A DNA stretch of 49,128 nucleotides from Treponema sp. (GTDB lineage Bacteria; Spirochaetota; Spirochaetia; Treponematales; Treponemataceae): the NCBI GenBank assembly GCA_045643485.1, contig JAZUKU010000178.1, positions 1 through 49,128 on the forward strand, in the 5' to 3' direction. This document shows positions 34,330 through 49,128 of this stretch, one piece after another. The notes beneath the pieces are model-generated. The model had not been told where the DNA came from, did not search any database, and was given only the letters and a program-made list of their open reading frames with translations. Within the stretch, counting starts at the first letter, position 1, and each line of letters starts with the position of its first letter. The position numbers and the translations under genes are program-made.

Positions 34330-34429
34330 ATTTTTCCTCTTTTTAAAATCTGAATTCTGTTGTGAAAAAGTATGTCATAATTTAGACAAAAAGTCAAATA
34401 ATGTCAGAATAGAAATGAAAAATTTGCAA

Positions 34430-35296
34430 TCATTTTCTGAGCTGGTCGATTAAGTACGGAAATGCTGATTCAAAGTCAACGCCGTACCAGTTGTAGTCTT
34501 GGTGGCTCAATGTTGCGCGGATTGATTCTACAACGTAATCTGCTGACAGTTTGTATGATTCTTCAAGTGAAAGGCCCCTCATTAACGCACCAGTAAGCAC
34601 GCTTGCAAAAATGTCGCCTGTTCCGTGGAAGCTTTTTGGCATTTTTTCGTGGAAATACCATTTTACTTCGTCTGTCTGTGCATCGTATGAAGCAATGCCG
34701 ATTTTTCCGGTAACGTCCTGACCGTCAATCTTGTCGCCTAAGTTGAATTCGATGCCTTTAAGTACGATTTTCTTTGCGCCAAGAGCTGCAAGTTCCTTGA
34801 GCATTTTAATTACGTAGTCTGGAGAATAGCCTGAAGCAACGTACTGTTTGCCGAGCATAAAGCTGGCTTCAGTTAAGTTTGGAACAATTACGTCTGCCTT
34901 ACCGCAGAGTTTAGCCATTGCAAATGCAAATTCCTGTGTGAATCCTGGGTAAAGGTTTCCGTTGTCAGCCATGCATGGGTCTACGATGGCAAGTGTTCCG
35001 TTACCGCCAAAGTCTTCGATAAGCTTGTGCATTAAGTCGAGCTGCTCGAATGAACCAAGGTAGCCTGTGTATATTGCGTCAAAGTGGATCTTTTCGTTTT
35101 TCCAGTGGTCACAGATTGGCTTAATGTCTGAAGTTAAGTCGCGGAAAGTAAAGCCTTTGAATGCAGTGTGTGTTGAAAGAACTGCTGTCGGTAATACGCA
35201 TGCTTCTACTCCCATTGCCGAAATTATTGGAAGCGCAACTGTAAGCGAACATTTGCCAACGCATGAAATGTCCTGTACTGTAATGATTCTTTTCAT
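34430..35296 (-). CDS. pdxK: Pyridoxal/pyridoxamine kinase
   Basis: QDISCVGKCSL, LSTHT, TGYLG, VDPCMADNG, PNLTEA and GTGD motifs. Confidence 0.85.
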   Translation of the reverse strand: MKRIITVQDISCVGKCSLTVALPIISAMGVEACVLPTAVLSTHTAFKGFTFRDLTSDIKPICDHWKNEKIHFDAIYTGYLGSFEQLDLMHKLIEDFGGNGTLAIVDPCMADNGNLYPGFTQEFAFAMAKLCGKADVIVPNLTEASFMLGKQYVASGYSPDYVIKMLKELAALGAKKIVLKGIEFNLGDKIDGQDVTGKIGIASYDAQTDEVKWYFHEKMPKSFHGTGDIFASVLTGALMRGLSLEESYKLSADYVVESIRATLSHQDYNWYGVDFESAFPYLIDQLRK

Positions 35297-35429
35297 AATT
35301 GTGTACCTCTTGGGGAAAAAGATTTACAGCATTTGTTGTAGAATAAATTCAAACTTTGTGCAATATTTCTGCGGATTTTTTTTAATGATGGATATTTTAT
35401 CTTTTAGACTTATATAGTATATTATTTGT

Positions 35430-35762
35430 ATGGATGAACTGGATATTCAGCATATTAAGAAACTCTGTGAAGAAAAACGCATCCAATGGACAAATCATAT
35501 TCTGGTAAGGCTTTTACAGAGAGATATACTTCAGGAAGATGTTGAAAATGCAATTAAAACCGGAGAAATTATTGAATATTATCCGGATGATTATCCGAAT
35601 CCAAGCTGTTTGATTTTAGGAACAACAGTTTCTGGAAAACAGTTACATATTGTATGTGGAATATGTGATGATGTTCTCTGGATGATAACTGCATATTACC
35701 CGGATTCAACTATATGGAAAGAAGATTATAAAACTAGAATAGAAGGAGGAACAAAAGAATGA
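35430..35762 (+). CDS. DUF4258 family protein (RelE-like toxin candidate)
   Basis: H...RL.QR.I..EDV..AI..GEIIE.YPDD...PSCLILG...LHIVC...ITAYYPD...W pattern. Confidence 0.8.
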   Translation: MDELDIQHIKKLCEEKRIQWTNHILVRLLQRDILQEDVENAIKTGEIIEYYPDDYPNPSCLILGTTVSGKQLHIVCGICDDVLWMITAYYPDSTIWKEDYKTRIEGGTKE

Positions 35763-35986
35763 CATGTTTTATGTGCAAAGGAAATTTGGTTGCAGGAACA
35801 ACAACTTTCATGTGTGATATGGGAACATGTATTATCATTATAAAAAATGTTCCTTGCAATAAATGTACTCAATGTGGTGAGATTTCGTATTCAGATGAAG
35901 TCTCAAAAAAAATTCAGAAGATTATTTTTGATTTGAAAAAAAATGTGACAGATATTGCTGTTACGGATTATCAACAGGCTGCATAA
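35759..35986 (+). CDS. YgiT/MqsA-type zinc-finger protein (antitoxin candidate)
   Basis: MTCFMCKG...IIKNVPCNKCTQCGE; ATGA overlap with the upstream gene. Confidence 0.8.
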   Translation: MTCFMCKGNLVAGTTTFMCDMGTCIIIIKNVPCNKCTQCGEISYSDEVSKKIQKIIFDLKKNVTDIAVTDYQQAA

Positions 35987-36768
35987 TGATAATTGATTTT
36001 CACGCACATATATACCCTGAAAAAATTGCTGCAAAAGCTTCAAAGGCAATTGGTGACTTTTACAATACTACAATGGACCACGTAGGAAGCAGCGAAGGAC
36101 TTATTGAAAGCGGTAAAAAAATTGGTGTTACAAAATACGTAGTCCATTCAGCTGCAACAACAGAAAAACAGGTTGAATCAATAAATGACTTTATAATAAG
36201 CGAAACACAAAAGCACAGCGAATTCATTGGCTTTGGAACAATGCATCCTGATTACGCAAATTTTGAAGAAGAATTAAAGCGCATTAACAAAGCTGGCCTT
36301 AAGGGAATTAAGCTTCACCCTGATTTCCAGAAGTTTGAAATTGACAGCACAAAGATGGACGGTATTTACGAAGTTCTTGCCGAATTGAAAATGCCCGTAC
36401 TGTTTCATGCAGGAGACGCAAGATTCAGTTACAGCGGACCGGAACGCATTGCAAATGTAATGGAAAAGTTTCCAAAGCTGCTGATTGTTGCGGCACACTT
36501 TGGCGGTTACACTGAATGGGAAAAGGCAACGGAATATCTTGTTGGCAAAAACGTTTACTTTGACACTTCAAGTACGCTGTGGAAGCTTCCTGTTGAAAAG
36601 GCAAATGAAATGATGAAGAAACACGGTATAGAAAAAATGCTGTTCGGCTCAGATTATCCTATGTGGGACCACGAAGGTGAACTTGCCCGCTTTAACAGAC
36701 TTGACTTGTCTGCAGAAGAACGTGAGCTTGTAATGTGTGGAAATGCAAAAAATCTTCTGGGACTTTAA
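35986..36768 (+). CDS. Amidohydrolase family (amidohydro_2) protein
   Basis: IDFHAH, GIKLHP, FHAG, AHFGG, DTS and FGSDYP motifs. Confidence 0.9.
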   Translation: MIIDFHAHIYPEKIAAKASKAIGDFYNTTMDHVGSSEGLIESGKKIGVTKYVVHSAATTEKQVESINDFIISETQKHSEFIGFGTMHPDYANFEEELKRINKAGLKGIKLHPDFQKFEIDSTKMDGIYEVLAELKMPVLFHAGDARFSYSGPERIANVMEKFPKLLIVAAHFGGYTEWEKATEYLVGKNVYFDTSSTLWKLPVEKANEMMKKHGIEKMLFGSDYPMWDHEGELARFNRLDLSAEERELVMCGNAKNLLGL

Positions 36769-36789
36769 CAGTAAGCTGTGGAGGAAATT

Positions 36790-37491
36790 ATGGAAGAAGA
36801 TCTTGCAAAACATTTTGACAGTGACGTAAAGAGATTTACCAATCTTGCAACAGGTCAGGCTTCTTTTGTTGACTCAACTGTAATTCTTGAAGAATTTGCC
36901 TTTACAGCAAAAACATTAAAACCTGAAGCAAAGACATTACTTGATATTGGAACAGGCGGCGGTAACCAGACGCTCAATCTGCTGAATGTTTTGCCACAGC
37001 TTGAATGTACTGCAATTGACGTAAGCCCAAAGATGCTTGAAGCTGCTCGCGAAAGAATAGGACAGGTTTGCAAAAGCGTAAATGTAATTGAAGGCGACGT
37101 AAGAAACGTTTGTTTACAGAGCGGAAAATATGATCTTGTTACTGCAAGCGCAGTGCTTCATCATTTGCGTGGAACAGACGAATGGCTTGATGTTTACGCA
37201 AAGATTTTTGATGCAATGGCTCCAGGCGGTTTGCTTTTGATTTCAGACTTTATCTGTTACGACAACAGCGATATTCAGAAAGGGCAGATGGAACGGTATA
37301 AGAATTTCCTTTACGAAAAACTAGGAGACGCTGAAGCAGAAAGAATTCTGAAAAGCATTGCTGAAACAGATACACCACGTTCTATGGAATGGCAGCTTGA
37401 AATAATGCAGAAGGCCGGTTTCGCAAACATAACTGTTCTTCACAAGAATATGCTTTTTGGCGCATGGTACGCAGTTAAGCCGGCACTTTAA
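36790..37491 (+). CDS. Class I SAM-dependent methyltransferase
   Basis: LDIGTGGG, DVSPKML, VLHHL and PGG motifs; ATG follows GGAGG. Confidence 0.88.
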   Translation: MEEDLAKHFDSDVKRFTNLATGQASFVDSTVILEEFAFTAKTLKPEAKTLLDIGTGGGNQTLNLLNVLPQLECTAIDVSPKMLEAARERIGQVCKSVNVIEGDVRNVCLQSGKYDLVTASAVLHHLRGTDEWLDVYAKIFDAMAPGGLLLISDFICYDNSDIQKGQMERYKNFLYEKLGDAEAERILKSIAETDTPRSMEWQLEIMQKAGFANITVLHKNMLFGAWYAVKPAL

Positions 37492-37528
37492 TTGTTTGCG
37501 GAAAAAAAACTGTTCAGAAATAATTTTA

Positions 37529-39463
37529 TTAACGGAAACTCTTTTTGATAAAGTCAGTAAAATTTTCTTCAGGCATTGGTTCAGCAAAATAGTATCCCTG
37601 AACATAATCGCAGTTGAGTCGTTCAAACTGTTTGAGAGAAGCTTCTGTTTCAACACCGCCGATTACGGTTTCAAGATTAAGTGTTTTTGCAAGATTGAGA
37701 ATGCTTTCAAGAATAATGTTTGCCTTGCTGTAATTTGAATTGTCTGCAAAACTTTTGTCTAATTTAATTGCCCTGAAAGGAAGTTGTGAAATCTTCTGTA
37801 AGTTAGAATAGCCCTTTCCAAAATCATCAAGTGTAATTGAAACGCCTGCGTTAACAAGAGTATCCAGTGTGTTTGTAAGCTGTGACTTTGACTGAGAAAT
37901 TGCTGTTTCTGGAATTGAAATGCTTAGCTTTGACGGAGAAACATTGAATCTTGTTAAAGTAGAAATGATTGTTTCGGAAAGATGTTCCTGCATGCATTCT
38001 GCTGCCGAAAGGTTTACTTCTACGTACTCAAGGCCAATGTCGTCAAATGTCTTGCTTGCAATAAAACGGCATACTTCTGAAAAAACAAATTCACCTATTC
38101 TGTGAATCATGCCGTTCTTTTCTGCTGCAGGAAGGAACATGTCCGGATATAAAATACCGTAGTCGTTGTCCTTTAAGCGCAGAAGTGCTTCGGCACCCTT
38201 AAAGCATTTGTCTTTTACGGAATAGATAGGCTGGAAATAAAGTACGAAGTTTTCGTTTGAAATACCGCGTTCAATAATTTTGTTTATGTTGCGTTTTTTT
38301 ACGTAATAGTCAGGATGATAAAGTGATGATGCATACAGGACATTTCCAGTGTAGTAGAATGCATTGTTTAAGTCTTTGCTGAAAAGAATAAGCGAATCGA
38401 AATCAGAAATATCATGCGGACATCTTATTATGCAGACACAAGCTATAAGTGTAAGCTTTAAGTCCTGGAAAGGAAGAGGTCTTTTTAACGTATCATTTAG
38501 TTTTTCTACAGTAATATCTACTTTGTCAAAGCATTTTTCTTCTACAATCATGCGGTATTCGCCGTTGCGTATGTAGAATAATTCTGCGTTAAGAGAATAT
38601 TCATTGTTGATTTTTTCTATTATCGAAGCAATTCTTGCAGACAAGTCGCTGTTTGTTTCATAACCTGTCATTTCCCTCAGGGAATTGTAGTTTGTTATGT
38701 TAATGACAATATGTATTGTATCTTTTCCATTTATGAATGCTTTTTTTGTAATATTTGTGTAATACATGTTGTTACCGAATTTAGTTTCAGCATTCAAAAG
38801 TTCTTCCGGTTTTTGAATTGTGTATGTTACAAGAAGAATTGCCAGTGTGTGACAGAACATTTCAATCTTAATCTGCGGAAAGAAAAATTGTATTGCAGCT
38901 GCAATAATAAAAAGAGGATAGAGCGAAAGGATATAGAATAATTCTGATTTTGAAAAAAGATATCTTCGTTTGATTATATGAACAATTCCGTAAATAATGG
39001 AAATTGATGCGTTCAAATAAAGAAGAATAAAATAGGGTCCACGGACATATAATTCTGTTACAGGATCTATATAAAAAATCTTTGGAACGAAAAAGTTTAC
39101 TACAAAAAGAAAAACGTTAATAAGTATTGGAAGGAAAAGGAAAATTTTCAGGACTATATGCTGTTTAATTTTATGCCAGGTGTCTGTAAGGGAAACAAGA
39201 AAGCAGAAATACAGAATTGAAGTAAAGTTGTGAAGCAGAAGATAAAACCAGTGTGAAATATATTTTGCTAAGACATTGCTGGCACCTAAATTATCAATAT
39301 AAACAGAAGCAGTAGAAAAAATTGTCGTAACGAAAATTTCAATTGTTGTTATTATAAGGAATTTATTTGCTTTGCCTTTTATAAGACGGCGTTGAAATAT
39401 TGAAATGAGGATAATTATTTGAATTACCAGTGCACTGTAATTGAAATAATTTATTTTAGGCAT
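37529..39463 (-). CDS. Membrane-bound GGDEF-EAL protein, both domains degenerate
   Basis: About 7 N-terminal TMs; GGDEF site reads RNGEY; FQPI..AEALLR, DDFGKGYS, KLDKSF and QGYY present. Confidence 0.85.
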   Translation of the reverse strand: MPKINYFNYSALVIQIIILISIFQRRLIKGKANKFLIITTIEIFVTTIFSTASVYIDNLGASNVLAKYISHWFYLLLHNFTSILYFCFLVSLTDTWHKIKQHIVLKIFLFLPILINVFLFVVNFFVPKIFYIDPVTELYVRGPYFILLYLNASISIIYGIVHIIKRRYLFSKSELFYILSLYPLFIIAAAIQFFFPQIKIEMFCHTLAILLVTYTIQKPEELLNAETKFGNNMYYTNITKKAFINGKDTIHIVINITNYNSLREMTGYETNSDLSARIASIIEKINNEYSLNAELFYIRNGEYRMIVEEKCFDKVDITVEKLNDTLKRPLPFQDLKLTLIACVCIIRCPHDISDFDSLILFSKDLNNAFYYTGNVLYASSLYHPDYYVKKRNINKIIERGISNENFVLYFQPIYSVKDKCFKGAEALLRLKDNDYGILYPDMFLPAAEKNGMIHRIGEFVFSEVCRFIASKTFDDIGLEYVEVNLSAAECMQEHLSETIISTLTRFNVSPSKLSISIPETAISQSKSQLTNTLDTLVNAGVSITLDDFGKGYSNLQKISQLPFRAIKLDKSFADNSNYSKANIILESILNLAKTLNLETVIGGVETEASLKQFERLNCDYVQGYYFAEPMPEENFTDFIKKSFR

Positions 39464-39481
39464 TCTCTCTCCACATAAAAA

Positions 39482-40147
39482 TTATTTTCTTAACATGAAG
39501 ATGCAAAGAAGTGTAACTGCAACAGCTACGCCAATTCCTATGAAAACAAGTATTTGTTTAAGATTAAGTTTTTTTATTTTAATTTCTGCTATAAACAAAA
39601 ATCCTAAAAGTATAATGAAGAATACATATATTAAAGCAAAATCAAATGAAAGTGCAAACTGAAGGAAAACTAAGAACGGAAAAACAAAAACAGCTGCAGT
39701 AATTGGAACTCCTGAATAATACTCACGAACACCGCTTTCTGACTTCTGTCTTTCATCTTCAGTAACATTGAAGTGTGCAAGCCTTATTAATCCGCAGAGT
39801 GCATAGAAAACATTTATGATTAAGCAGATTTCCTTAATGATTGAAGGAAAATTTGCGAATGTTTCTGACTGATTGATTATTGAAATACCAAGACATGCCG
39901 GAAGAATACCAAATGCAATTACATCTGAAAGGGAATCAATCTGGATTCCGAATTTACGTTCATATTCAGTACGGTTTTTCTTAGTTCTGGCAACTTTGCC
40001 GTCGAATGCATCTAATATTCCGCAAATAAGAAGACAGCATGCAGAAACTACAGCTTTATGTGGAGTAAAAGCACAGATAATGCCGTATGTAGCAGATGCA
40101 ACTGAAAGATAAGTAAGAATAACTGTATAATCGTAAACGCCTAACAT
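39482..40147 (-). CDS. CDP-alcohol phosphatidyltransferase (PssA-like)
   Basis: DAFDGKVAR...FGIQIDSLSD signature; RLAHFN motif. Confidence 0.88.
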   Translation of the reverse strand: MLGVYDYTVILTYLSVASATYGIICAFTPHKAVVSACCLLICGILDAFDGKVARTKKNRTEYERKFGIQIDSLSDVIAFGILPACLGISIINQSETFANFPSIIKEICLIINVFYALCGLIRLAHFNVTEDERQKSESGVREYYSGVPITAAVFVFPFLVFLQFALSFDFALIYVFFIILLGFLFIAEIKIKKLNLKQILVFIGIGVAVAVTLLCIFMLRK

Positions 40148-40222
40148 TGTGATTCCTTAAATAGATTTTCTATTCATTATATCTCACAAGGTCAGGCGTT
40201 TCAACTGATATACCGTAATAGA

Positions 40223-42850
40223 TTATCTGATCTTAATACCGGCTGAAATTGACGGATAAACTGCAAACTGTGAATTACTCCATTCCCATGTACGCTTGTA
40301 GCCTTCATCAAATGCTTTGTCGTTCCAACCGTTAAACTTAATGTCAAATGTTCCTGATGCAAATAATGTAAGGTGTTTGCCAAGTCCAAGGTTAACTGTA
40401 AGCCTTGCAGCAGGAATCTGGTAATTATTTACTATATTGAAGAATGTTCCAGTTGCTTTGATAGCAGTTGAATTGAACTTAAGCAGTGAACTCCATGATA
40501 AACCTTTTCCAGTTTCGCTCTTTACGCTGTTCTTAAGTCCCTTCATGTTTTTAGAAGAGATTTTCCAGAGGAATTCAAAGTCGATGCTGTCATCGTCTCC
40601 TAAATTAAATCTTGAGCCTATGCCTACAAAAGTCATGTTCTTCTGGCTGAATGCAGGATCGTAGTTAACGCTCTTTTTTGATGTATAAGCAACGCCGATT
40701 GTAGTAAACAATGTGTTGGAACCACTCTGATACTGGATTATATGTTCCTTGTCTGTATCGAAACTGTATCCAAAATCATGTACACCGTTCTTGATGTAGT
40801 TGAAAAGACCAATTCCAAAACCGTGTCCTTCATCAGAAATGTTGATTAAACCAATCTGTACACCGTTAAGTGTTTTTGCATAGTTAACGATTGGTGAAAT
40901 CTGCATACCCCTTACATCATCTGCGCTGTTTGAAATTCCAGCCCACTGAATGCCGCGAAGTTTTTCTGCATGGTTAGCAATGCCTGAATACTGTGAACCG
41001 TAAACTGATTTTGCTCCGTTGTAGATTCCTGCACTCTGCATGCCATAAATTACGTCTGCTGTACATGAAATACCAGCTGTCTGTATACCGACAACTTTTC
41101 CACCTGAAACACAGATACCACCAGTCTGCACACCGCAGAGATTGTCAGCTTTTGCCGTAATACCGCTTGTCTGAATACCAAACAGATTGCCTGCTGTTGC
41201 TGTAATGCCTGCTGTCTGTACACCAATCAGGTTTTCCTTTGCAATAGTTGAGAATGAAGCTGTCTGTATACCAAGAATATTCTTTGTTGATGTTCCAAAA
41301 ATACCGAATGCAAACATTGTTGTGCTTTTTCTTACAGCAAGAAAATCGTAGCTTGTTGTAAATGACAACTGGAACGGAACAAAGCCTTTGTCATTAGCCA
41401 TAGCCCATGAAATATTCTTAACAGTTGTTCCAATGATTGATTTTGGAATAATCTTTTCAGAAGTATTTTCGTCGTTTCCAGGAATTTTTATTGAGAGGTT
41501 AAAAGATGATTTTTCCTTAGGTTCTCCGCCGTCTTCACTTTCTTCTGTCTTCTTTGAATATGAGAACTTAAGTATTGAGTCTTCATCAGTTTCCTCTTCT
41601 TCTTTTTCAACTGGAACTGCTATTTCTTCAGGTTCTGATGATTCAGAAGGAGGTGTGAATGAAAGGAATTCTTCATTTTCTTCAGCTACATATTCTTCTT
41701 CATAATCATCTGGTGCTTCAAGATATTCTTCTTCTACAACAGGTCCTTCTGTAACAGGTGCATTTGGTATTTTCTTACCGCCGCGCTGCTTTGTTTCCTT
41801 GCGTGTTACTTTCTGCATTCCGCTTTCTTCAATTAAGAATGTGTCGTCTACGTTAAGGATGAATGTTCCCTGCTTTGTAGATGTATCTGTAATTACAACA
41901 ACTGTATATGTTCCGGCTGAAAGAGCCATTGTTATAGGAATACCCTTTGATTTGTTGATTTCAGAAATAAGCTTGCCGCGTGCATCACGGATAATGAAAC
42001 GTCCTTCTGCTTCCTTTGCAATTACAACAGAAGCTTCTGCAGTAGAAATGTCGCTTAAAATCAAGTCTCCTGAACCAACAAGCGTAATGTTGTAGTTAGG
42101 GTGCTGTGGACCAGCGTCAGTTTCTTCTGTCTTAGAAAGAGTGTCGTTGAATGCATAAGAGTAAAGTTCAGTAAGTGAAACCTTGTTGTCTCCGGAAGTA
42201 TCAGCTGCACCGCGCAAGCCTGTAATCATTGCGTTTGTAAAGTAAGAAGATTCAATTTCATCTGATTCCTGTGAAGATTCTTTTTCTGAACTTGAAGAAA
42301 GGTATGCGTGACCTTTTACAACAGATGAATCGTCCATAAGGAACGGCTTCTTTTTCTGACCGCCTTTTGTTCTGATAAAGTTACCAGAGTAGCATGAGTC
42401 AAGAATTACAACGTGAATGTCGCTTGGAACTTCTGTGATTGCTTTTTTAAGTGAAGAATAATCGTACTTGTCGTCGCCTAAAAGAAGTTCGTCTTCTGTA
42501 GAATGTCCTGAATAGTAGAAAAGGAATTCTGAACGCTTAGCAAGATTGTTTTTCTTTTCGATTGTTGCAGAAACGCTTTCGATTGCTTCTTCTACAGTTT
42601 CTTTTGTCGGATCAATAAGAAGCCAGCTGTTCTTTTCAGGAACACCGCCAATTTCGGCCATTGTCTTCTGAAAATTCTGTGCATCGCTTCCTGCATACAG
42701 TAATTTTTCTCTTTCCTTTCCCCCGTAGTTTGATCCTATATAAATAGCGTATCTTTCAACGCCTGCTTCTGCTTTCTGATTTGCACTGTTTGCTGCAAAT
42801 GCTGCTGTACTAAGCAAAAGGATTGCTGCTGCTAAAATTATCTTCTTCAT
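40223..42850 (-). CDS. Exported caspase-family (peptidase C14) protein with G-x-Q surface repeats and a beta-rich C-terminus
   Basis: Signal peptide ending AFA; FYYSGHS (His) and ILDSCYSG (Cys); SQESD, SYFT..GLRGAAD and QHP motifs; ~15-aa GxQxxG repeats; ATG 42850 follows AGGAG. Confidence 0.88.
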   Translation of the reverse strand: MKKIILAAAILLLSTAAFAANSANQKAEAGVERYAIYIGSNYGGKEREKLLYAGSDAQNFQKTMAEIGGVPEKNSWLLIDPTKETVEEAIESVSATIEKKNNLAKRSEFLFYYSGHSTEDELLLGDDKYDYSSLKKAITEVPSDIHVVILDSCYSGNFIRTKGGQKKKPFLMDDSSVVKGHAYLSSSSEKESSQESDEIESSYFTNAMITGLRGAADTSGDNKVSLTELYSYAFNDTLSKTEETDAGPQHPNYNITLVGSGDLILSDISTAEASVVIAKEAEGRFIIRDARGKLISEINKSKGIPITMALSAGTYTVVVITDTSTKQGTFILNVDDTFLIEESGMQKVTRKETKQRGGKKIPNAPVTEGPVVEEEYLEAPDDYEEEYVAEENEEFLSFTPPSESSEPEEIAVPVEKEEEETDEDSILKFSYSKKTEESEDGGEPKEKSSFNLSIKIPGNDENTSEKIIPKSIIGTTVKNISWAMANDKGFVPFQLSFTTSYDFLAVRKSTTMFAFGIFGTSTKNILGIQTASFSTIAKENLIGVQTAGITATAGNLFGIQTSGITAKADNLCGVQTGGICVSGGKVVGIQTAGISCTADVIYGMQSAGIYNGAKSVYGSQYSGIANHAEKLRGIQWAGISNSADDVRGMQISPIVNYAKTLNGVQIGLINISDEGHGFGIGLFNYIKNGVHDFGYSFDTDKEHIIQYQSGSNTLFTTIGVAYTSKKSVNYDPAFSQKNMTFVGIGSRFNLGDDDSIDFEFLWKISSKNMKGLKNSVKSETGKGLSWSSLLKFNSTAIKATGTFFNIVNNYQIPAARLTVNLGLGKHLTLFASGTFDIKFNGWNDKAFDEGYKRTWEWSNSQFAVYPSISAGIKIR

Positions 42851-42879
42851 TTTTCTAGTTCTCCTCTTTTTCAATCCAG

Positions 42880-43698
42880 TTATTTAACCAGCAGGAATGA
42901 TTTGCCTTCTGTGTTTCTTGGAAGGTATGACATTTTTTCTATATACGAAAGGCTTGTTCTGTCCATTAATTTTTCTTCAATGTTCTCAAGATTGAACGGC
43001 TTGTTTGATGTTACCAGAATGAAGCATTCAAAATCCGGAGCATCATCAAGTTCGTAAGAAAAGTCTAAAGGAACTTCTGTTGACTCTTTTGATAATTCTA
43101 CACTGTCCCAGCCTTCTTCAGGGAAATGCTGTGTTACGTTACCGTTTCCGTCTACGCTGAAAATAAAGCCGTATTTTTTCTGGCCGGCGTTGTATGTAAT
43201 CTGGATAACGTCTCCTTCTTCTGCTTTAGAACCGTCCTTAAGCTTTTCTGCCTGCTTACCGTCCTGTCTGTAAAGTGTAAGTGCTGGAACATTTGATTTA
43301 GCTGCTCCCTTAAGGCGAACACCTGTTGTCTGTGGCTGTACTGCAGCTGTGTTTTCTGCTGCAAGTGATTTCTTTTCTGTAAGTGTTAACGGAAGAACAA
43401 CTGCTGCTGCAAGAACTGCGGCTGCGGCTAATGTTATTCTTGTTAATTTAGTAAACGGAATTACCTTTGGCTTTGTGTTTTTATCTGCGGCTTGTTTTTC
43501 GTTTTTGTTGCTGTTCATTTTGTTAAGAACTGCAGTCTTCATGTCCTCAATTGAGTACTGTTCAAGAATTTCAGCATCGGATTTTCTTAAAGATTCAACT
43601 ACTTCTTCTACGTTTTCTTTGCCGTAGAGTTCGTAGTAATCCTCCGCCTGTAACTCGTTGTTTTTGATTGCTTCAGCAATTCTTGTTGGAATCTGCAT
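42880..43698 (-). CDS. Putative anti-sigma factor (1 TM plus DUF4384-like C-terminal domain)
   Basis: Short helical N-terminus, TM TLAAAAVLAAAVVLPL, then GDVIQITY...YGFIFSVDGNGNVTQHFP...SYELDDAP..E.FILV; overlaps the sigma gene by 26 bp. Confidence 0.7.
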   Translation of the reverse strand: MQIPTRIAEAIKNNELQAEDYYELYGKENVEEVVESLRKSDAEILEQYSIEDMKTAVLNKMNSNKNEKQAADKNTKPKVIPFTKLTRITLAAAAVLAAAVVLPLTLTEKKSLAAENTAAVQPQTTGVRLKGAAKSNVPALTLYRQDGKQAEKLKDGSKAEEGDVIQITYNAGQKKYGFIFSVDGNGNVTQHFPEEGWDSVELSKESTEVPLDFSYELDDAPDFECFILVTSNKPFNLENIEEKLMDRTSLSYIEKMSYLPRNTEGKSFLLVK

Positions 43699-44182
43699 AC
43701 TTTTCTCCTGCTTCTTTCTTTAGTTTTCCAAGTCGCTTTCTTATGCCAGAAACAGACATGTTTACCATTTGTGCTGTTTCTTCCAGTGTGTAACCGTCAA
43801 CATAATGCAGTGTTGCAATTTCACGGTCTTTTGAGTCTCTTTCCGAAAAAATACATTCCAGCAAAAGACTTGTACTGATGTTTTCTTCCTGCATAGAAGA
43901 AGCTGTATCTTCTATGGTTTCTGCAATTAAATCGAACTGCGGACCGGAGCGGATCTTGTCGGAACGGATTTTGTTCAGGCAGACCCTTGTAGCTGTTGTG
44001 TAGAACAAACTTGAACACACATCAGTCAGCTTGTCTTTATGCTCGATTATCCTTAGGAAAACATCCTGCATTGCATCAACCGCTTTTTCTTCATCCTTAA
44101 GAATGAATCGGCAGCGTCGCAATACCATTGGACCATACTGACGGTACAATTCATCAAAATCATTCATTGACAAAGTTTTCAT
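43673..44182 (-). CDS. ECF RNA polymerase sigma factor
   Basis: 169 aa; region 2 FDELYRQY..V.R.C...A.DAMQDVF; region 4 LHYVDGYTLEETA...SVSGIRKRL. Confidence 0.92.
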   Translation of the reverse strand: MKTLSMNDFDELYRQYGPMVLRRCRFILKDEEKAVDAMQDVFLRIIEHKDKLTDVCSSLFYTTATRVCLNKIRSDKIRSGPQFDLIAETIEDTASSMQEENISTSLLLECIFSERDSKDREIATLHYVDGYTLEETAQMVNMSVSGIRKRLGKLKKEAGEKYADSNKNC

Positions 44183-44210
44183 TGTACAATTATTTTCCTG
44201 TCATTAAATT

Positions 44211-44238
44211 AAACACACTGACGGTAAGAAAATGTTCC
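44211..44238 (-). promoter_or_regulatory. Possible ECF-type autoregulatory promoter
   Basis: Minus strand GGAAC-N17-GTGTTT, about 30 nt upstream of the sigma ATG. Confidence 0.45.
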
Positions 44239-44385
44239 TTTAAAAAATAAATTAAAGAAATTCCAACTAACAAATACTTTTTTTTATGGAATAAGTATAT
44301 AGAATAATTAATGAGAATAAAACACTATACTGTGTTATAGCAATAGTGTTCTGTCTGTGGATATTGCGAAAGTTAGGAAGCTGAA

Positions 44386-45033
44386 TTAAAGGTCGACTGC
44401 TTCCTTTTCAGGTTCTGACGAAGCTTCGTTTGTCCTGCGGTACTGGTGAACTTTTTTTACAACAACAAAAGCCATTGTGGCTATGAGCATTACAAAAAGC
44501 ACAATTCCGGTAACCTTAAACCATACGCTTGCAGATTCTCCTATGGCAAATACAAGGAAATACAGCGTTGAAGAGCTTATGAGTACTGCAATTGAGTCAA
44601 ACAGTATGAATTTCTTTATTCCAAGGTGAACAAAGCCTGAACTTGTAAACAGTAAGTTTCTTACGCCAAATGGTATGAAACGGCAAATGATGAATGTCCT
44701 GAAACCGTTTTTGTTAAGTTCGTACTTGATTATTGAAAGGCGTTCCTTTGTTAATTTACCGCGTATTTTGCGGAATTTGAGCGCACCTTTAGAAGTAACC
44801 CTGCCAAAGTAGTAACAGATTATGTCGCTTAGGAAAATGCCTGCAAAAAGACCTGCGTATGTTGGCAGAAGAATCTTGTGATCAGCCTGAGCAACAGCAG
44901 CTGAAAGTATTATAACTGCGTCTTCGGAAATTGGCAGATTGAATCCGGCTGGAATGAGTACAAGAAAAGCAACTAACGGCCAGTATGAAATGTGTGAAGT
45001 AAGATTTGCAAGCAAAAAATCCATGCGGGGCAT
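44386..45033 (-). CDS. DedA family membrane protein
   Basis: LPISED, SD..CYYFGR and RFIPFGVR motifs. Confidence 0.88.
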   Translation of the reverse strand: MPRMDFLLANLTSHISYWPLVAFLVLIPAGFNLPISEDAVIILSAAVAQADHKILLPTYAGLFAGIFLSDIICYYFGRVTSKGALKFRKIRGKLTKERLSIIKYELNKNGFRTFIICRFIPFGVRNLLFTSSGFVHLGIKKFILFDSIAVLISSSTLYFLVFAIGESASVWFKVTGIVLFVMLIATMAFVVVKKVHQYRRTNEASSEPEKEAVDL

Positions 45034-45125
45034 TCTATAGAATAATTAAATTAATGACAATAAGTAATGTTATTGAATTTTAACGAAAAAATGATAAAAT
45101 AGATAAATCTGGGGGTGACCAATAA

Positions 45126-45584
45126 ATGGACGTTAAGATTATCAATCCTTTTTTATCAGCAGGGCTTTATACATTTGAGCAGATGTTTGGAATTAAGCCT
45201 GATTACAAGGAACCGTTTGTTCTTGAAATAAATTCAGGTCATCCATGGGAAGTTTCCGGACTTCTTGGCGTTACGGGCGACTATAACGGTGTAATTGCAT
45301 TCCGGCTTCATAAAACTCTTGCATATAAGCTGCTTGATTTGTCAGGACTTATTGTTCCACCGGAAGAAAAAAATGATATGGCACAGCAGCTTGTAAGTGA
45401 ATTTACGAATATTGTTGCAGGAAGCGCTGTTTCTGCAATTAAAGATATGAATCTCTGCATTTCGCCGCCTGTTACCATTGCCGGTCCTAACCATACAATA
45501 CAGTGGCCTCGCAGCTACCCTGTTGTAGGCATTCCGTTTGTTACGCCTTATGGACCTTACGAAGTAGACGTTTGCTTTAAATAA
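45126..45584 (+). CDS. cheX: Chemotaxis phosphatase CheX
   Basis: INPFL, SGLLGVTGD..G, SEFTNIVAG and ISPP motifs. Confidence 0.85.
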   Translation: MDVKIINPFLSAGLYTFEQMFGIKPDYKEPFVLEINSGHPWEVSGLLGVTGDYNGVIAFRLHKTLAYKLLDLSGLIVPPEEKNDMAQQLVSEFTNIVAGSAVSAIKDMNLCISPPVTIAGPNHTIQWPRSYPVVGIPFVTPYGPYEVDVCFK

Positions 45585-45612
45585 TTACGCTTGTCTGCAG
45601 AAGATTTGCTTT

Positions 45613-45707
45613 TTTGCGGACAGTGCGCGGTTTGCAAAGAGTTTATTGCTTTGCGGACAGTGCGCAGTTGGCTAAGAAAATACTGCTTTGCAGACAGTGC
45701 GCGGTTT
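45613..45707. repeat. Three direct repeats with 37-bp period
   Basis: TTTGC(G/A)GACAGTGCGC(G/A)GTT at 45613, 45650 and 45687. Confidence 0.85.
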
Positions 45708-45723
45708 TGAGTTAGAAATATAT

Positions 45724-46557
45724 ATGAAGAAAAGTGTTTTTTGGGAAGGTGTTCGTGACGGACTGCCAATTGGCTTAGGATATTTTGCCGTTGCGTTTTC
45801 ACTTGGAATTGTTGCCCAGGCTGCAGGGCTTACTGCAGTTGAGGGATTCATTGCCAGTTTTTTTAATGTCGCTTCTGCCGGTGAATATGCTTTGTTTACT
45901 TCAATTCAGGCTGGTGTTTCTTACGCTGAAGTTGCTTTGATTACGCTTGTTGTTAACGCACGCTATCTTTTGATGAGCTGTGCACTTTCGCAGAAGTTTT
46001 CTCCTGATACAAAAATGATTCACCGCTTTGGAGTTGGATTTGGCGTTACTGATGAAATATTCGGTATTACGATTGGACGCGGCGGTTATATAAATCCTGT
46101 TTACAATTACGGGGCTATAGCGATTGCGGTTCCTTTGTGGAGTCTTGGGACTGCATTTGGTATTCTTGCTGGAAATTTACTGCCTCTGCGGATTGTAAGT
46201 GCGCTTTCTGTTGCGCTTTACGGAATGTTCCTTGCGATTATAATTCCTCCTGCAAAGAAGGATATTGTTATTGCAATTGCTGTCGGATGCAGTTTTTTGC
46301 TTAGCTGGGCGTGCGGCGTGCTTCCTTATGTGAAGGAGCTTTCCGGCGGCAACAGGACGATTATTCTTACGGTGCTGATTTCTTCCGTTGTGGCAATTGT
46401 TAAGCCCGTTAAGGATGATGATGACGGTTTGCAGAAAGGCGAGGCTGCTTTGCAGACTGAAGCTGCGGGCGCTGAAGATGCTGCCAGTCTGGTAACTGAA
46501 GCTGCGGGCGGTAAAGAAAGTTCTGATTTGCAGACTGAAGAAGGGGGCGCAGAATGA
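45724..46557 (+). CDS. azlC: AzlC family branched-chain amino acid exporter subunit
   Basis: GLPIGLGYF, NARY.LMS, TDEIFG and AL..MFLAI motifs; ATG 45724 preferred as start. Confidence 0.85.
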   Translation: MKKSVFWEGVRDGLPIGLGYFAVAFSLGIVAQAAGLTAVEGFIASFFNVASAGEYALFTSIQAGVSYAEVALITLVVNARYLLMSCALSQKFSPDTKMIHRFGVGFGVTDEIFGITIGRGGYINPVYNYGAIAIAVPLWSLGTAFGILAGNLLPLRIVSALSVALYGMFLAIIIPPAKKDIVIAIAVGCSFLLSWACGVLPYVKELSGGNRTIILTVLISSVVAIVKPVKDDDDGLQKGEAALQTEAAGAEDAASLVTEAAGGKESSDLQTEEGGAE

Positions 46558-46862
46558 GTGGCAACGCTTACGCATACATTTTTACAGCATTCATTGTGTC
46601 ATATTTGATTCGTGTACTTCCGCTTACGTTGATACGCAAACCAATCAGGAACAGATTCCTGCGTTCGTTTTTATATTACGTGCCTTACGTAACGCTTGCC
46701 GTTATGACATTCCCTGCAATCATTGAAGCAACACAATCTACTCTTGCCGGAGTAATTGCACTTGTTGTAGGAATTGTCCTTTCGCTTATTGGAGCTGGTC
46801 TTCTTCCGGTAGCGTGTGTCTGCTGCGTTGTAGTTTTTGTTGCAGAATTATTTCTTGTCTGA
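46554..46862 (+). CDS. azlD: AzlD family protein
   Basis: YLIRVLP...FLYYVPY..LAVMTFP pattern; coupled to azlC. Confidence 0.85.
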   Translation: MSGNAYAYIFTAFIVSYLIRVLPLTLIRKPIRNRFLRSFLYYVPYVTLAVMTFPAIIEATQSTLAGVIALVVGIVLSLIGAGLLPVACVCCVVVFVAELFLV

Positions 46863-47711
46863 CAACTGATTCAGTCTGTTTTTCAATGACTCTTTTCTTT
46901 CCTTGACTGTCTGTCTTATGTGGTCAAGAACAGTGCCGTATTCAGGGGCTTTCATTGAAGGGTAGCGCTTTAGCCAGTCTTCAATAACTGCCTGTCTGCG
47001 TGAATAATTTTCTGCGGCTTCAAGAAGTTTCCTGTTGAATTTAGTTTTGTCTACTGCAGCTTTTTCTTTGACTGAAGCAATCATTTCGTGGAGGGAATGA
47101 CTTCTGAACCATGCTTCTCCTTCGTAACGTTCGCTCAGCTGTTCTGCAAATGTCTTGAGCCGGCCCATTGCTGTGTTAAAGTCAACAAGCTTACGGATTG
47201 TAAGCATTATGTCTGTTGCCAGAATGAGTGCAATGATTATGTAGATTGTACGCACATACGGCTGAAGGAATTCCATGTAAAGCAGGCGGTAAACAAACGG
47301 TTCTACAAAATGCCACTGCGCTACACCAAGCAGTCCGAACAGTGTTGAGTTAAGAAGGCAAACCCTTCCGTGAATGTTGAATTTTCTTGAAGAATAGTCC
47401 CACCATTTTGCGTGAAACATTTTTTCCAGAATCCAGCTTGATGCATATTCAAGAAGTGAAGTTAAAATCATTGACGCTAAGAAAAGAATCAGCCACGAAT
47501 TGCGCCACGGGTACAGACAGTAAACGATTATGATTCCACCAAAGCCGTATATCGGACAGATAGGGCCGTAAAGCATTCCTCGGTAAACAAAACGCCTGTT
47601 TGCAAAAGAAACATAAAATTCTTCGCACACCCATCCAATGAATGCAAAGATAATGAACATAAGGAAAAGATGTTCTATGTCGGTGTTAAGCATCTGAAAT
47701 ATTGAAATCAT
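46848..47711 (-). CDS. Putative ABC transporter permease-like membrane protein (CmpB/DUF1113-like)
   Basis: FIGWVCE, RGMLYGPICPIYGFG and WWDYS...NIHGRVCL motifs. Confidence 0.8.
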   Translation of the reverse strand: MISIFQMLNTDIEHLFLMFIIFAFIGWVCEEFYVSFANRRFVYRGMLYGPICPIYGFGGIIIVYCLYPWRNSWLILFLASMILTSLLEYASSWILEKMFHAKWWDYSSRKFNIHGRVCLLNSTLFGLLGVAQWHFVEPFVYRLLYMEFLQPYVRTIYIIIALILATDIMLTIRKLVDFNTAMGRLKTFAEQLSERYEGEAWFRSHSLHEMIASVKEKAAVDKTKFNRKLLEAAENYSRRQAVIEDWLKRYPSMKAPEYGTVLDHIRQTVKERKESLKNRLNQLSDKK

Positions 47712-47835
47712 AACAGCCTCCTTTACGCAGGTTTCATGTCTGAATTCAATATACGAAAATTTCTGTGTGAAGACAAATTAATGATTTGTAATTGCGGAAA
47801 CGAAAACTGTTTGTGCTAACAGGCGCTGTTCAGAA

Positions 47836-48489
47836 TTATTTAATTGCGTTAACAAACTGCTCAATGTAATAATCAACTACAGCAAATGCCTTTTCATCAG
47901 AAGGAAGCGAGAATAATTCTCCTTCACCGTCTGCCGGATTGTTTATTACAAGCTGCTTGCGTTCAAGAAGATACTGGCTTAGGAAATCGCGTATTGCCGA
48001 ACAGAACCATGTTGCTGCACTCTTAACATCCATTGCTGTAATGCTGATTTTTCCTGCGTTAACAAGTGCCGTAAGAATTTCTTCTGTCTGCGAAATGAGT
48101 TTTGCTTTTTCAGCCTTAACAATATCTGCTGACTTGCTTGAAAAATATTTTGTGCTTTCTACAAAAGTGTAAATCTGAAAGAGGGGAGCCTTTTCGTGCA
48201 TCTTGAAGTAACGGTTAACCATTCCCTTTAAGACAATTACAGGAGTGTATTTGTTTGTAACAGCTTCAATGTCGCCTGGCTTAAACGAAATCTCATTCAT
48301 GTATTCAGAACATGCATCTGAAGTGTAGTCGAAAATTTCTTCGCGGCTTGCAAAATGATTGTAGAGGGAAGCCTTTTTTATTCCAAGCTCACTCGCAATG
48401 TCGTTAAGGCTTGTTGCTCCGGCTGATTTGTAAAATGTTGTTTTAAGAACTGCATTAACAATTTCATCTTTTGAAATTTTTTCTGACAT
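47836..48489 (-). CDS. TetR/AcrR family transcriptional regulator
   Basis: HTH ATSLNDIASELGIKKASLYNHFASREEI; ATG 48489 follows GGGGA. Confidence 0.9.
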   Translation of the reverse strand: MSEKISKDEIVNAVLKTTFYKSAGATSLNDIASELGIKKASLYNHFASREEIFDYTSDACSEYMNEISFKPGDIEAVTNKYTPVIVLKGMVNRYFKMHEKAPLFQIYTFVESTKYFSSKSADIVKAEKAKLISQTEEILTALVNAGKISITAMDVKSAATWFCSAIRDFLSQYLLERKQLVINNPADGEGELFSLPSDEKAFAVVDYYIEQFVNAIK

Positions 48490-48532
48490 AATGTCCCCCT
48501 GAATGCCTATGTCTTTTTGTGATGCCGTATTT

Positions 48533-48552
48533 AAACTAACGACCGTTAGTTT
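48533..48552. promoter_or_regulatory. Probable TetR operator
   Basis: Perfect 9-2-9 palindrome AAACTAACG-AC-CGTTAGTTT just downstream of a TTTACA-N17-TAAAAT minus-strand promoter. Confidence 0.7.
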
Positions 48553-48769
48553 TATTTTATAGCAGGAATTTGTGTTTGTAAACACTTGAAGCCTTTTCTT
48601 TTAAAAACAAATTCTGTACTTAAATTTTTGCTTTAGCGCATTCAGTAAAAATTGAATGTATGTTCTGCGGAATCAGGGAAAATTTAAAATTCTAACAGTC
48701 GTTCAAATTTTAACAAAATCGCTGGTAAAATGATAATTGTTGAGGAACAGACATTTTGCGGACGGGTAG

Positions 48770-48805
48770 TTAAACGATTAACTTAATTAAACGATTAACT
48801 TAATT
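48770..48805. repeat. 17-bp tandem duplication
   Basis: TTAAACGATTAACTTAA twice, in tandem. Confidence 0.85.
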
Positions 48806-49032
48806 TGAGCGGTTCCTTTAAATTTTTCAATCAGCTAATTGTTTGAATGAAGTTTTTGTAAGAAAATATAGAATAATTGCGTTATTTTATAGTAATATAG
48901 CGATATTTTAAGACGAATTCATTGTATTTAACAAAAGTGAAAGGTATAATTTCATTAAGTTTAACAAAAATTATGAAAATGTCATTTTGTTAAGTGCTAT
49001 AAAAAAGTTGAAAGTTTTTTAAGAGGATCAAT

Positions 49033-49128
49033 ATGGAACAGACACTGCCAAAAATGCTTCGTCATAGTGCAGAAAAATGGCCTGAACTTAACGCACAATA
49101 TTCCCGCACAAAGAAAGGTGATTTCATT
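49033..49128 (+). CDS. Partial CDS, probably the N-terminus of a long-chain fatty acid--CoA ligase
   Basis: GAGGA RBS; MEQTLPKMLRHSAEKWPELNAQY resembles the TLPEMF..TVKRFP N-terminus of the ligase at 32572-34329. Confidence 0.5.
   Translation, partial: MEQTLPKMLRHSAEKWPELNAQYSRTKKGDFI

What the first reader, a model, noticed from the sequence alone, without database searches (positions are those of the whole stretch)
40223..44238. ECF sigma / membrane anti-sigma / exported caspase operon: candidate protease-gated trans-envelope signalling system
Seen: three tightly linked genes (26-bp overlap, then a 29-bp gap). They encode an ECF sigma; a 272-aa protein with a cytoplasmic helical N-terminus, one TM and an extracytoplasmic DUF4384-like domain; and a signal-peptide-bearing C14 protease with an intact His-Cys dyad (SGHS, DSCYSG). 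Established: ECF sigmas are usually released by regulated proteolysis of a co-encoded anti-sigma, and caspase-like proteases control a sigma factor in type III-E CRISPR systems (Csx29/Csx30). Inference: a periplasmic caspase acts as a dedicated site-1 protease, triggered through its C-terminal repeat domain. I know of no experimental description of this arrangement in spirochetes.
Basis: partly seen in the sequence, partly recalled or inferred. Interest (0 to 1): 0.85.

Follow-up and report, generated by a model that had tools for sequence, protein, structure and literature searches.

The report
Outer-membrane caspase switch for sigma factor
Three linked genes, conserved across several bacterial phyla, encode a stress-type sigma factor, its likely membrane inhibitor and a caspase-like protease predicted to hang from the outer membrane; inhibitor and protease share one short conserved motif, so the protease likely switches the sigma factor on by cutting the inhibitor there, which would give bacterial caspases a signalling job that point mutations can test.

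Summary
Observation confirmed: ECF sigma, single-pass membrane protein and signal-peptide C14 protease (H116, C153), with the stated overlap and gap. The genes travel together: the same 59 of 401 Spirochaetota genomes carry anti-sigma and caspase; 150 distinct triads were seen, also in Myxococcota and other phyla. Additions: the protease is predicted to end in an 8-stranded OmpA-like barrel, with a beta-helix stalk that many relatives lack, so the repeats are not a general trigger. Lys-Gly (mostly R-x-K-G) is invariant in 126 of 126 anti-sigma linkers and 126 of 126 caspase post-Cys loops. A bipartite promoter precedes the sigma gene (26 of 28 held-out myxobacterial loci); its best other sites here precede exported proteins. 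The middle protein belongs to the ActD family, and RseP is present. Best reading (0.6, inferred): caspase as site-1 protease, then RseP, then sigma release. Prior art: sigma/metacaspase operons noted in silico (2012); DdvA autoproteolysis proposed (2024). This scan's earlier AI notes report the same triad on other DNA (26 findings, at least 24 genomes). New variant of a known kind.

The parts
44210..44239 (-). Predicted promoter of the operon, probably read by the encoded sigma: GGAACA (44238-44233), 17-base spacer, TGTT (44215-44212), ending 27 bases before the sigma start
   Evidence: Motif found de novo upstream of sigma genes (score 1215 against about 500 in shuffles); this site; held-out test 26 of 28 against 1 of 27 control windows
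43673..44182 (-). ECF sigma factor, 169 aa, regions 2 and 4 only
42880..43698 (-). Likely anti-sigma factor, 272 aa, ActD family
43480..43698 (-). Helical N-terminal domain (residues 1-73), zinc-less relative of ZAS anti-sigma domains, predicted cytoplasmic
   Evidence: model helices; hhalign probability 96%, E 2e-9 to HxxxCxxC-bearing relatives; no Cys before the membrane helix in 111 of 126
43369..43446 (-). Single membrane helix (about residues 85-110), predicted N-in
   Evidence: more Lys/Arg on the N-terminal side in 107 of 126
43306..43317 (-). R128-L-K130-G131 in the low-confidence linker outside the membrane: candidate site-1 cleavage site
   Evidence: K and G 126 of 126, R 122 of 126, flanking linker 9-15% conserved; pLDDT under 50 at 114-127
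42886..43284 (-). Ig-like beta-sandwich (residues 139-271), DUF4384-like
40223..42850 (-). Exported caspase-fold protease, 875 aa from the ATG start
42794..42850 (-). Predicted signal peptide (about residues 1-19)
   Evidence: sequence; hydropathy; similar N-termini by eye in the 59 relatives printed
42050..42760 (-). C14 protease domain (31-267) with H116, C153 and invariant D56, D151
   Evidence: metacaspase 4 Z 20.1, rmsd 2.7, 203 aligned
42359..42373 (-). R160-T-K162-G163-G164 in the flexible loop after the catalytic Cys: candidate self-processing site
   Evidence: K and G 126 of 126, R 110 of 126; pLDDT under 50 at 162-167
41810..42034 (-). Beta-sandwich domain after the protease (273-347)
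41780..41785 (-). R356-G357 at the start of the disordered acidic linker: candidate release site
   Evidence: at least 90% conserved in A5, mostly close relatives; [RK]G in 90 of 126 row ends
41444..41791 (-). Disordered acidic linker (about 354-469), much shorter in most relatives
40784..41392 (-). Beta-helix of LA_2272-type repeats (about 487-689)
   Evidence: beta-helix matches Z 16.3 (rmsd 2.7, 197 aligned) and Z 14.4
40226..40783 (-). Predicted 8-stranded outer-membrane beta-barrel (690-875)
   Evidence: eight strands in the model; OprF barrel Z 15.1, rmsd 2.9, 123 aligned; OmpA Z 13.6; NspA Z 13.3

Best explanation
The three genes form a conserved unit in which a caspase-fold protease, predicted to be anchored in the outer membrane and to face the periplasm, likely acts as the dedicated first protease that cuts the probable anti-sigma factor at its R-x-K-G motif and so would free the ECF sigma factor. 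Steps: (1) shown: gene linkage, domain content, intact His-Cys pair, invariant Lys-Gly in both proteins, a conserved upstream motif. (2) predicted: signal peptide, protease, beta-sandwich, linker, beta-helix stalk, 8-stranded barrel, with the protease on the periplasmic side. (3) inferred: an unknown envelope cue, perhaps at the barrel's variable outer loops or through clustering, activates the zymogen, which cuts its own loop after K162 and probably frees itself at R356-G357. (4) inferred: the freed protease cuts the anti-sigma after K130, about 17 residues from the membrane, shedding the Ig-like domain. (5) inferred from known pathways: RseP cuts within the membrane and the cytoplasmic remnant is degraded. 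(6) inferred: the sigma transcribes its own operon and a few genes for exported proteins.
For: Same 59 of 401 genomes hold both genes, with matching copy numbers in G264 and G057. Order sigma, anti-sigma, caspase in 58 of 60, 72 of 80 and 27 of 30 loci; the misses in the first two sets are at contig ends. His and Cys intact in 126 of 126. Lys-Gly invariant in the anti-sigma linker although neighbouring positions are 9-15% conserved; R.KG in 123 of 126 sequences against a mean of 7.3 in shuffles. The same motif is invariant 9 residues after the catalytic Cys, in a low-confidence loop. D56 and D151 are invariant and align with the aspartates of metacaspase 4; characterised homologues prefer basic residues (PMC8283722, passages). 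Long barrel loops lie opposite both termini. RseP present. RseP degrades DdvA once its periplasmic domain is removed (PMC11506125, passages). Promoter motif in 26 of 28 held-out loci.
Against: No cleavage, binding or signal is shown. The P2 residue does not co-vary between the two motifs (identical in 23 of 126), so there is no pairwise co-evolution signal. An invariant Lys-Gly could be a docking or inhibitory motif rather than a scissile bond. In G529 and G523 a sigma/anti-sigma pair keeps the motif while its third gene has lost the protease domain; in G523 a caspase copy elsewhere could act in trans, which is untested. L213 has no caspase within 14 kb and L215 no sigma. The caspase gene probably lies under the sigma's own promoter, as an output gene would. 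Genome-wide the promoter matrix gives no more hits than shuffled DNA (138 against 136 and 136), and candidate targets are not orthologous between genomes.
Confidence: 0.6

Rival explanations
1. The caspase is an output of the sigma factor, an envelope quality-control or remodelling protease, and the middle protein's R-x-K-G loop is a bait or inhibitor that restrains it; another protease or cue releases the sigma.
For: The caspase gene lies downstream of the conserved promoter. A co-encoded caspase inhibitor exists in another system: PCi inhibits PCaspase and is itself cleaved (10.1101/2023.06.23.546230, parts 1-2 of 5 read). In L203 and L204 anti-sigma and caspase stay together without a sigma gene.
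Against: Cutting a bait loop that lies between membrane and Ig domain would still shed the domain that is expected to shield the membrane helix from RseP (inference). Strict one-to-one linkage across phyla fits a regulator better than an output, since other candidate targets are not conserved.
Confidence: 0.15
2. Cleavage at Lys-Gly is constitutive maturation, or the motif only docks in the protease; the real switch is a signal-driven change in contact between the outer-membrane protein and the anti-sigma Ig domain, as in cell-surface signalling.
For: Self-cleaved anti-sigma factors whose fragments stay associated until a signal are described (discussion of PMC11506125). The Ig-like domain holds most of the anti-sigma's invariant residues (S181, D183, D218, E224), which suggests a conserved partner surface.
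Against: The catalytic pair is intact in all 126. Stalk-less forms of about 545-560 aa could hardly span the periplasm while tethered (inference), which favours release of the protease.
Confidence: 0.13
3. The protease is displayed on the cell surface or shed, like an autotransporter passenger, and acts on outside substrates; it never meets the anti-sigma.
For: Beta-helix plus C-terminal barrel resembles autotransporters, and the repeats match adhesin beta-helices; NCBIfam calls them surface repeats.
Against: The barrel has 8 strands and matches OmpA/OprF/NspA, which have no passenger channel (recalled); long loops lie opposite the N-terminus. It would not explain the shared motif or the strict linkage.
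Confidence: 0.07
4. An anti-phage or cell-death module like the CRISPR- and CBASS-linked caspase systems.
For: Related architecture in DdvA/DdvS, Csx29/Csx30 and PCaspase loci; weak PADLOC 'caspase' match, E 1.4e-4.
Against: No cas, cyclase or effector gene is evident among the ORFs of window 34000-49128 (read by eye); candidate targets are exported envelope proteins. Defence linkage of the other loci was not tested.
Confidence: 0.05

Closest known systems
DdvS/DdvA of Myxococcus xanthus (PMC11506125; abstract and passages read)
   Same: ECF sigma, single-pass anti-sigma with a ZAS-type domain, a periplasmic clan-CD protease proposed to cut the juxtamembrane linker before RseP
   Different: There the protease is a TPR-CHAT domain fused to the anti-sigma, site-1 cleavage was not demonstrated, and the regulon is a defence island. 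Here it is a separate C14 protease with a predicted outer-membrane anchor and a defined candidate site.
Sigma-70/metacaspase operons of M. xanthus, Anaeromyxobacter, Haliangium, Sorangium, Ralstonia, Fibrobacter (Asplund-Samuelsson 2012, PMC3501461; passages read)
   Same: Very probably the same cassette: a sigma factor in an operon with a metacaspase, in myxobacteria and Fibrobacter
   Different: The passages seen name no anti-sigma, barrel, motif or mechanism, and no spirochetes for this operon; Figure 5 itself could not be seen.
ActD and the following gene of the myxobacterial act operon (database names; genetics recalled, papers not held)
   Same: A protein that sources call 'ActD protein' aligns over 258 columns with this anti-sigma family (probability 100%); the next gene is a caspase 42% identical over 332 residues; the same promoter motif precedes it
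   Different: No sigma gene between promoter and actD; the pair follows REC-GGDEF, REC-sigma54 and epimerase-GNAT genes. I recall actD affecting the timing of C-signal production, with no mechanism.
E. coli sigmaE/RseA/DegS/RseP and B. subtilis SigW/RsiW (recalled; summarised in PMC10028731 passages)
   Same: Two-step proteolysis of a single-pass anti-sigma
   Different: DegS is an inner-membrane serine protease encoded apart (recalled); here a cysteine protease is co-encoded and predicted to be outer-membrane anchored.
Type III-E Csx29/Csx30/CASP-sigma and type III-B SAVED-CHAT/PCaspase
   Same: Caspase-like protease cuts a sigma regulator; one group of Csx30 C-terminal domains is DUF4384
   Different: Cytoplasmic, triggered by RNA or cyclic nucleotide, tied to CRISPR; none of those parts is encoded in this operon.
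ECF25 group (Casas-Pastor 2021, PMC7826278, supplement part 9 read)
   Same: Anti-sigma at +1, mostly single-pass, with zinc-binding domain and/or DUF4384; includes Spirochaetes, Fibrobacteres and Deltaproteobacteria
   Different: No caspase listed in its gene context; promoter given (subgroups 1 and 2 only) is GGAAC/GTC; membership of this sigma not tested.

Membership tests
ECF (group IV) sigma factor | Regions 2 and 4 only, short protein | tested here: met
   (TIGR02937 65.6 bits over 42.9)
Peptidase C14 (caspase-fold) | Caspase fold with His-Cys pair | tested here: met
Peptidase C14 (caspase-fold) | Proteolytic activity | not testable with these tools
   needs assay
Arg/Lys-specific meta-/orthocaspases | Acidic residues at the substrate-pocket positions | tested here: met
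   D56 and D151 invariant and aligned with Asp in metacaspase 4; their role as pocket residues is recalled
Caspase, EACC1-associated type (NF047832) | Score over curated cut-off 140 | tested here: not met
   69.4 bits
Membrane anti-sigma factor | Gene at +1, helical N-terminal domain, one membrane helix N-in | tested here: met
Membrane anti-sigma factor | Binds and inhibits the sigma | not tested
   complex prediction not available; inhibition needs experiment
ZAS (zinc-binding) anti-sigma | HxxxCxxC zinc motif | tested here: not met
   absent from P0002; no Cys before the membrane helix in 111 of 126; present in 11 of 15 distant relatives
DUF4384 (PF14326) | Score over gathering cut-off 27 | tested here: inconclusive
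   20.1 bits; 55 of 126 relatives match at E up to 0.05, best 2.6e-6
ActD family | Full-length similarity to proteins named ActD | tested here: met
OmpA-like 8-stranded outer-membrane barrel | Eight strands, fold match, short turns on the side of the termini | tested here: met
   predicted model only; the window protein ends in Arg rather than the aromatic residue of most relatives
Classical autotransporter | 12-stranded translocator barrel (recalled) | tested here: not met
   8 strands
TonB-dependent cell-surface signalling (FecA/FecR/FecI) | TonB-dependent receptor with plug in the cassette (recalled) | tested here: not met
   no such domain in the three proteins
DdvA/DdvS | TPR-CHAT domain fused to the anti-sigma | tested here: not met
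Type III-E craspase | Cas7-11 with TPR-CHAT Csx29, cytoplasmic | tested here: not met
   signal peptide and C14 domain, no TPR-CHAT; no cas gene evident in 34000-49128
ECF25 | Anti-sigma at +1 with one membrane helix and zinc domain and/or DUF4384 | tested here: met
ECF25 | Placement in the ECF25 clade by group models or tree | not testable with these tools
   no ECF group models held
ECF25 | Promoter GGAAC/GTC (given for subgroups 1 and 2) | tested here: inconclusive
   family motif GT[AG]ACA-N16/17-TGTT; the window's own site begins GGAAC; no motif given for the spirochete subgroup
Regulated intramembrane proteolysis pathway | Site-2 protease RseP in the genome | tested here: met
Regulated intramembrane proteolysis pathway | Signal-induced site-1 cleavage | not testable with these tools
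   needs experiment

The most novel reading that the evidence does not exclude
A self-contained, TonB-independent trans-envelope signalling class: an outer-membrane barrel senses an outside cue through interchangeable loops, its tethered caspase matures and cuts itself loose at Lys/Arg-Gly sites, crosses the periplasm and cleaves its own anti-sigma at the same motif. Interchangeable C-terminal modules (barrel with or without stalk, CsgG-like plus Kelch) would be the sensors, and the myxobacterial actD/caspase pair would be the same switch wired into development.
Probability: 0.35. Interest if true: 0.88.

Novelty: new variant of a known kind. Interest (0 to 1): 0.7.

Why it matters
Most bacterial caspase homologues have no known substrate. 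This cassette offers a named substrate, a candidate bond (after K130), a candidate self-processing site (after K162), a promoter to use as reporter, and a genetically tractable host, since myxobacteria carry it and one copy sits in the act operon. If true it adds a new kind of site-1 protease, placed in the outer membrane, and a route for outside signals to reach an ECF sigma factor without TonB. The family is large: 2,207 clusters at 50% identity match the anti-sigma profile at E up to 1e-10.

Tried and rejected
Complex prediction of caspase with the anti-sigma periplasmic part was not available, so no binding was modelled, nor for sigma with anti-sigma. The Atlas held neither the protein nor the homologue tried. 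An apparent anti-sigma/caspase fusion in G325 is a run of N in the assembly. Fold searches with the anti-sigma model gave only general Ig-like matches (no Foldseek hit at E up to 0.001; best Z 8.8 and 8.6), and its profile found no solved relative. Co-variation of the P2 residue between the two motifs: none. The whole-genome count of promoter-matrix hits equals shuffled DNA. Candidate target genes share no orthologues across five relatives. Expression: one RNA run held one 493-base contig over 42838-43330 and short unrelated pieces, which shows nothing about transcription. Pfam found no family for 42 of 46 caspase C-terminal parts. A genome search with PF00656 missed this genome's own caspase, so that route was dropped. 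Of 15 Fibrobacterota loci fetched only 2 were read, because the script machine was lost. Literature: ten searches listed no paper on this triad's mechanism; the library lacks most subscription journals, the act-operon papers were not held, the Casas-Pastor supplement is cut, and bioRxiv supplements are closed.


Full report
Observation. The three genes are on the minus strand at the stated places: sigma 44182-43673, middle gene 43698-42880, protease 42850-40223, with a 26-base overlap and a 29-base gap. The sigma has regions 2 and 4 only. The protease has a Peptidase_C14 domain with H116 and C153, the Cys codon at 42392-42394. The middle protein has one hydrophobic segment and a DUF4384 match below Pfam's cut-off. 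Each gene is single-copy in this genome by tblastn. Named close relatives are labelled Treponema.

Conservation. An anti-sigma profile matched 64 of 401 Spirochaetota genomes; 59 are strong (E below 1e-27) and five are weak partial hits. A caspase profile at E up to 1e-30 matched 59 of the same 401, and these are the same 59 genomes. Of the 62 strong places outside this genome I fetched 60: 58 show sigma, anti-sigma, caspase in order, and two end at a contig edge. Their titles include Myxococcales, Bacteriovoracaceae, Chitinispirillaceae, Acidobacteriota and Aminicenantes. In Myxococcota 98 of 151 genomes match; 27 of the best 30 loci are triads and 13 of 15 weaker loci that I picked. In Fibrobacterota 33 of 61 genomes match; the two loci read are triads. 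After removing duplicates the first three sets hold 150 distinct triads. Kin are not independent, and the distribution is patchy: 1 of 24 other genomes of this genus has the caspase.

The protease. The model (mean pLDDT 82) reads signal peptide, caspase domain (31-267), beta-sandwich (273-347), disordered acidic linker, beta-helix (about 487-689) and eight strands (690-874). The last part matches the OprF, OmpA and NspA barrels (Z 15.1, 13.6, 13.3) and the first matches metacaspase 4 (Z 20.1). Three long loops lie on the side opposite both termini, so the N-terminal domains are predicted to be periplasmic (inference from outer-membrane barrel topology, recalled). The repeats are optional: relatives of about 545-560 aa exist and the two tested have no LA_2272 match; two carry CsgG-like and Kelch domains; three stop at 309-414 aa.

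The anti-sigma. The model shows a helical N-terminal domain, a membrane helix, a low-confidence linker and an Ig-like domain. The N-terminal domain has no zinc motif, but 11 of 15 distant relatives carry HxxxCxxC and their N-termini align with this family at probability 96%. Sources name members of the family 'ActD protein' or 'ActD-like protein'. Sigma binding is inferred from position, topology and homology only.

The shared motif. In matched alignments of 126 loci, K130-G131 of the anti-sigma is invariant and R128 is kept in 122, while neighbouring linker positions are 9-15% conserved; the Lys lies a median 17 residues from the membrane helix. In the protease K162-G163 is invariant and R160 is kept in 110, nine residues after the catalytic Cys in a low-confidence loop. 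A third Arg-Gly follows the beta-sandwich. D56 and D151 are invariant and align with aspartates of metacaspase 4, and characterised homologues cut after basic residues (PMC8283722 passages). The simplest reading is one recognition motif used for self-processing, release and substrate cleavage. Against it, the middle residue does not co-vary between partners (23 of 126 identical), and a motif can dock or inhibit without being cut.

Promoter and output. A sampler run on 126 upstream regions found GT[AG]ACA, 16-17 bases, TGTT (score 1215 against about 500 in shuffles); 82 of the 126 sites fit it well. It was then found in 26 of 28 held-out myxobacterial loci against 1 of 27 control windows. The window's site is 44239-44210. 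The motif is nearly an inverted repeat, so an operator for another regulator is not excluded; its spacing and place fit an ECF promoter. In this genome the matrix gives no excess of hits overall, but at gene starts the eight best of 1,828 genes are the sigma itself, six genes scored as exported by my rough rule and one other; 341 of 1,828 are scored as exported, and 6 of the 10 best are (Fisher p 0.004). The strict pattern occurs 52 times against 21 for its reversed control in five genomes with the triad, and 17 against 34 in five without. Of 30 of those 52 sites examined, 12 lie at gene starts (three sigma genes, six exported proteins, three others), against 2 of 17. Targets include DUF4097, LPP20, SH3, barrel and TonB-receptor-plug proteins but no orthologous set. 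RseP is encoded in this genome.

A natural split. In G523 and G553 the anti-sigma and caspase follow REC-GGDEF, REC-sigma54 and epimerase-GNAT genes without a sigma gene (for G523's families), the layout I recall for the act operon, and the same promoter motif lies just before the anti-sigma gene. In G523 and G529 a second locus has sigma and anti-sigma followed by a 202-aa exported protein that is 49% identical to the barrel of a full caspase but lacks the protease. This fits action in trans, but also shows that a sigma/anti-sigma pair can persist without an adjacent protease.

Mechanism and rivals. Best reading (0.6): the caspase is the site-1 protease, RseP follows, the sigma is released and drives its operon and some envelope genes. 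Shown are linkage, domains, motifs and the upstream element; topology is predicted; every cleavage, the binding and the signal are inferred. Rivals: caspase as output restrained by a bait loop (0.15), constitutive cleavage or docking with a contact switch (0.13), surface display (0.07), defence (0.05).

Known systems and novelty. It works like DegS/RseA/RseP and like the model proposed for DdvA/DdvS (PMC11506125, abstract and passages), but is a member of neither. Sigma-plus-metacaspase operons were noted in silico in 2012 (PMC3501461, passages), and ECF25 anti-sigmas with DUF4384 in 2021 (PMC7826278, passages and supplement part 9). CRISPR-linked systems were read in passages or parts. Ten searches listed no paper on this mechanism; the act-operon papers could not be read and unseen supplements may bear on this. 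Earlier AI notes of this scan describe the same triad, barrel, motif, promoter and act link on other DNA; I had reached those points before seeing them, and they are not independent evidence. Verdict: real, widespread, a new variant of a known kind, untested; interest 0.7.

Noticed in passing
L204:2684-9869 and L203:5728-12981: Anti-sigma and caspase without a sigma gene at the end of an act-operon-like run (REC-GGDEF, REC-sigma54, epimerase-GNAT); the cassette's promoter motif lies just upstream of the anti-sigma gene.
   Followed up: partly
L205:4691-6968 and L202:3824-5768: Sigma and anti-sigma followed by a 202-aa exported protein that keeps only the barrel of the caspase gene, near dnaN; databases still call it 'peptidase'.
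   Followed up: partly
L086:4791-7160, L087:4651-7026, L088:4851-6770: Caspases whose C-terminal part is a CsgG-like domain, in two cases followed by Kelch repeats instead of a barrel; their post-Cys loop reads TLKG.
   Followed up: partly
L045:4826-6064, L122:5911-7155, L120:1751-2680: Short caspases (412, 414, 309 aa) that stop before repeats and barrel; natural truncation or frameshift not checked.
   Followed up: no
G000 contigs C114, C87, C115, C69, C171, C141 (L221-L226): Six genes for predicted exported proteins carry the promoter motif 35-62 bases upstream; Pfam: DUF4097 for one, weak SH3 and LpoB-like for two, none convincing for the rest.
   Followed up: partly
L293:3-1706: Apparent anti-sigma/caspase fusion, caused by a run of N in the assembly.
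   Followed up: yes
G391:C96:8740-9510 and L200: One caspase match holds an internal TAG and lies on another contig than its anti-sigma; in L200 the sigma match is split over two frames and the anti-sigma match holds a TGA. Decay or assembly error not resolved.
   Followed up: no
window 40204-40176 (-): Sigma-70-like site (11 of 12) just after the caspase stop, ahead of the CDP-alcohol phosphatidyltransferase-like gene at 40147-39482, which suggests that the operon ends with the caspase; such sites were fewer than in shuffles.
   Followed up: no
window 35430-35762 (+): 110-aa ORF that looks by eye like a DUF4258/BrnT-type toxin-antitoxin gene (label recalled, not tested).
   Followed up: no
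Spirochaetota sample: Patchy distribution: several large families have no match (for example f19 0 of 75, f24 0 of 38), while G264 has four copies.
   Followed up: no
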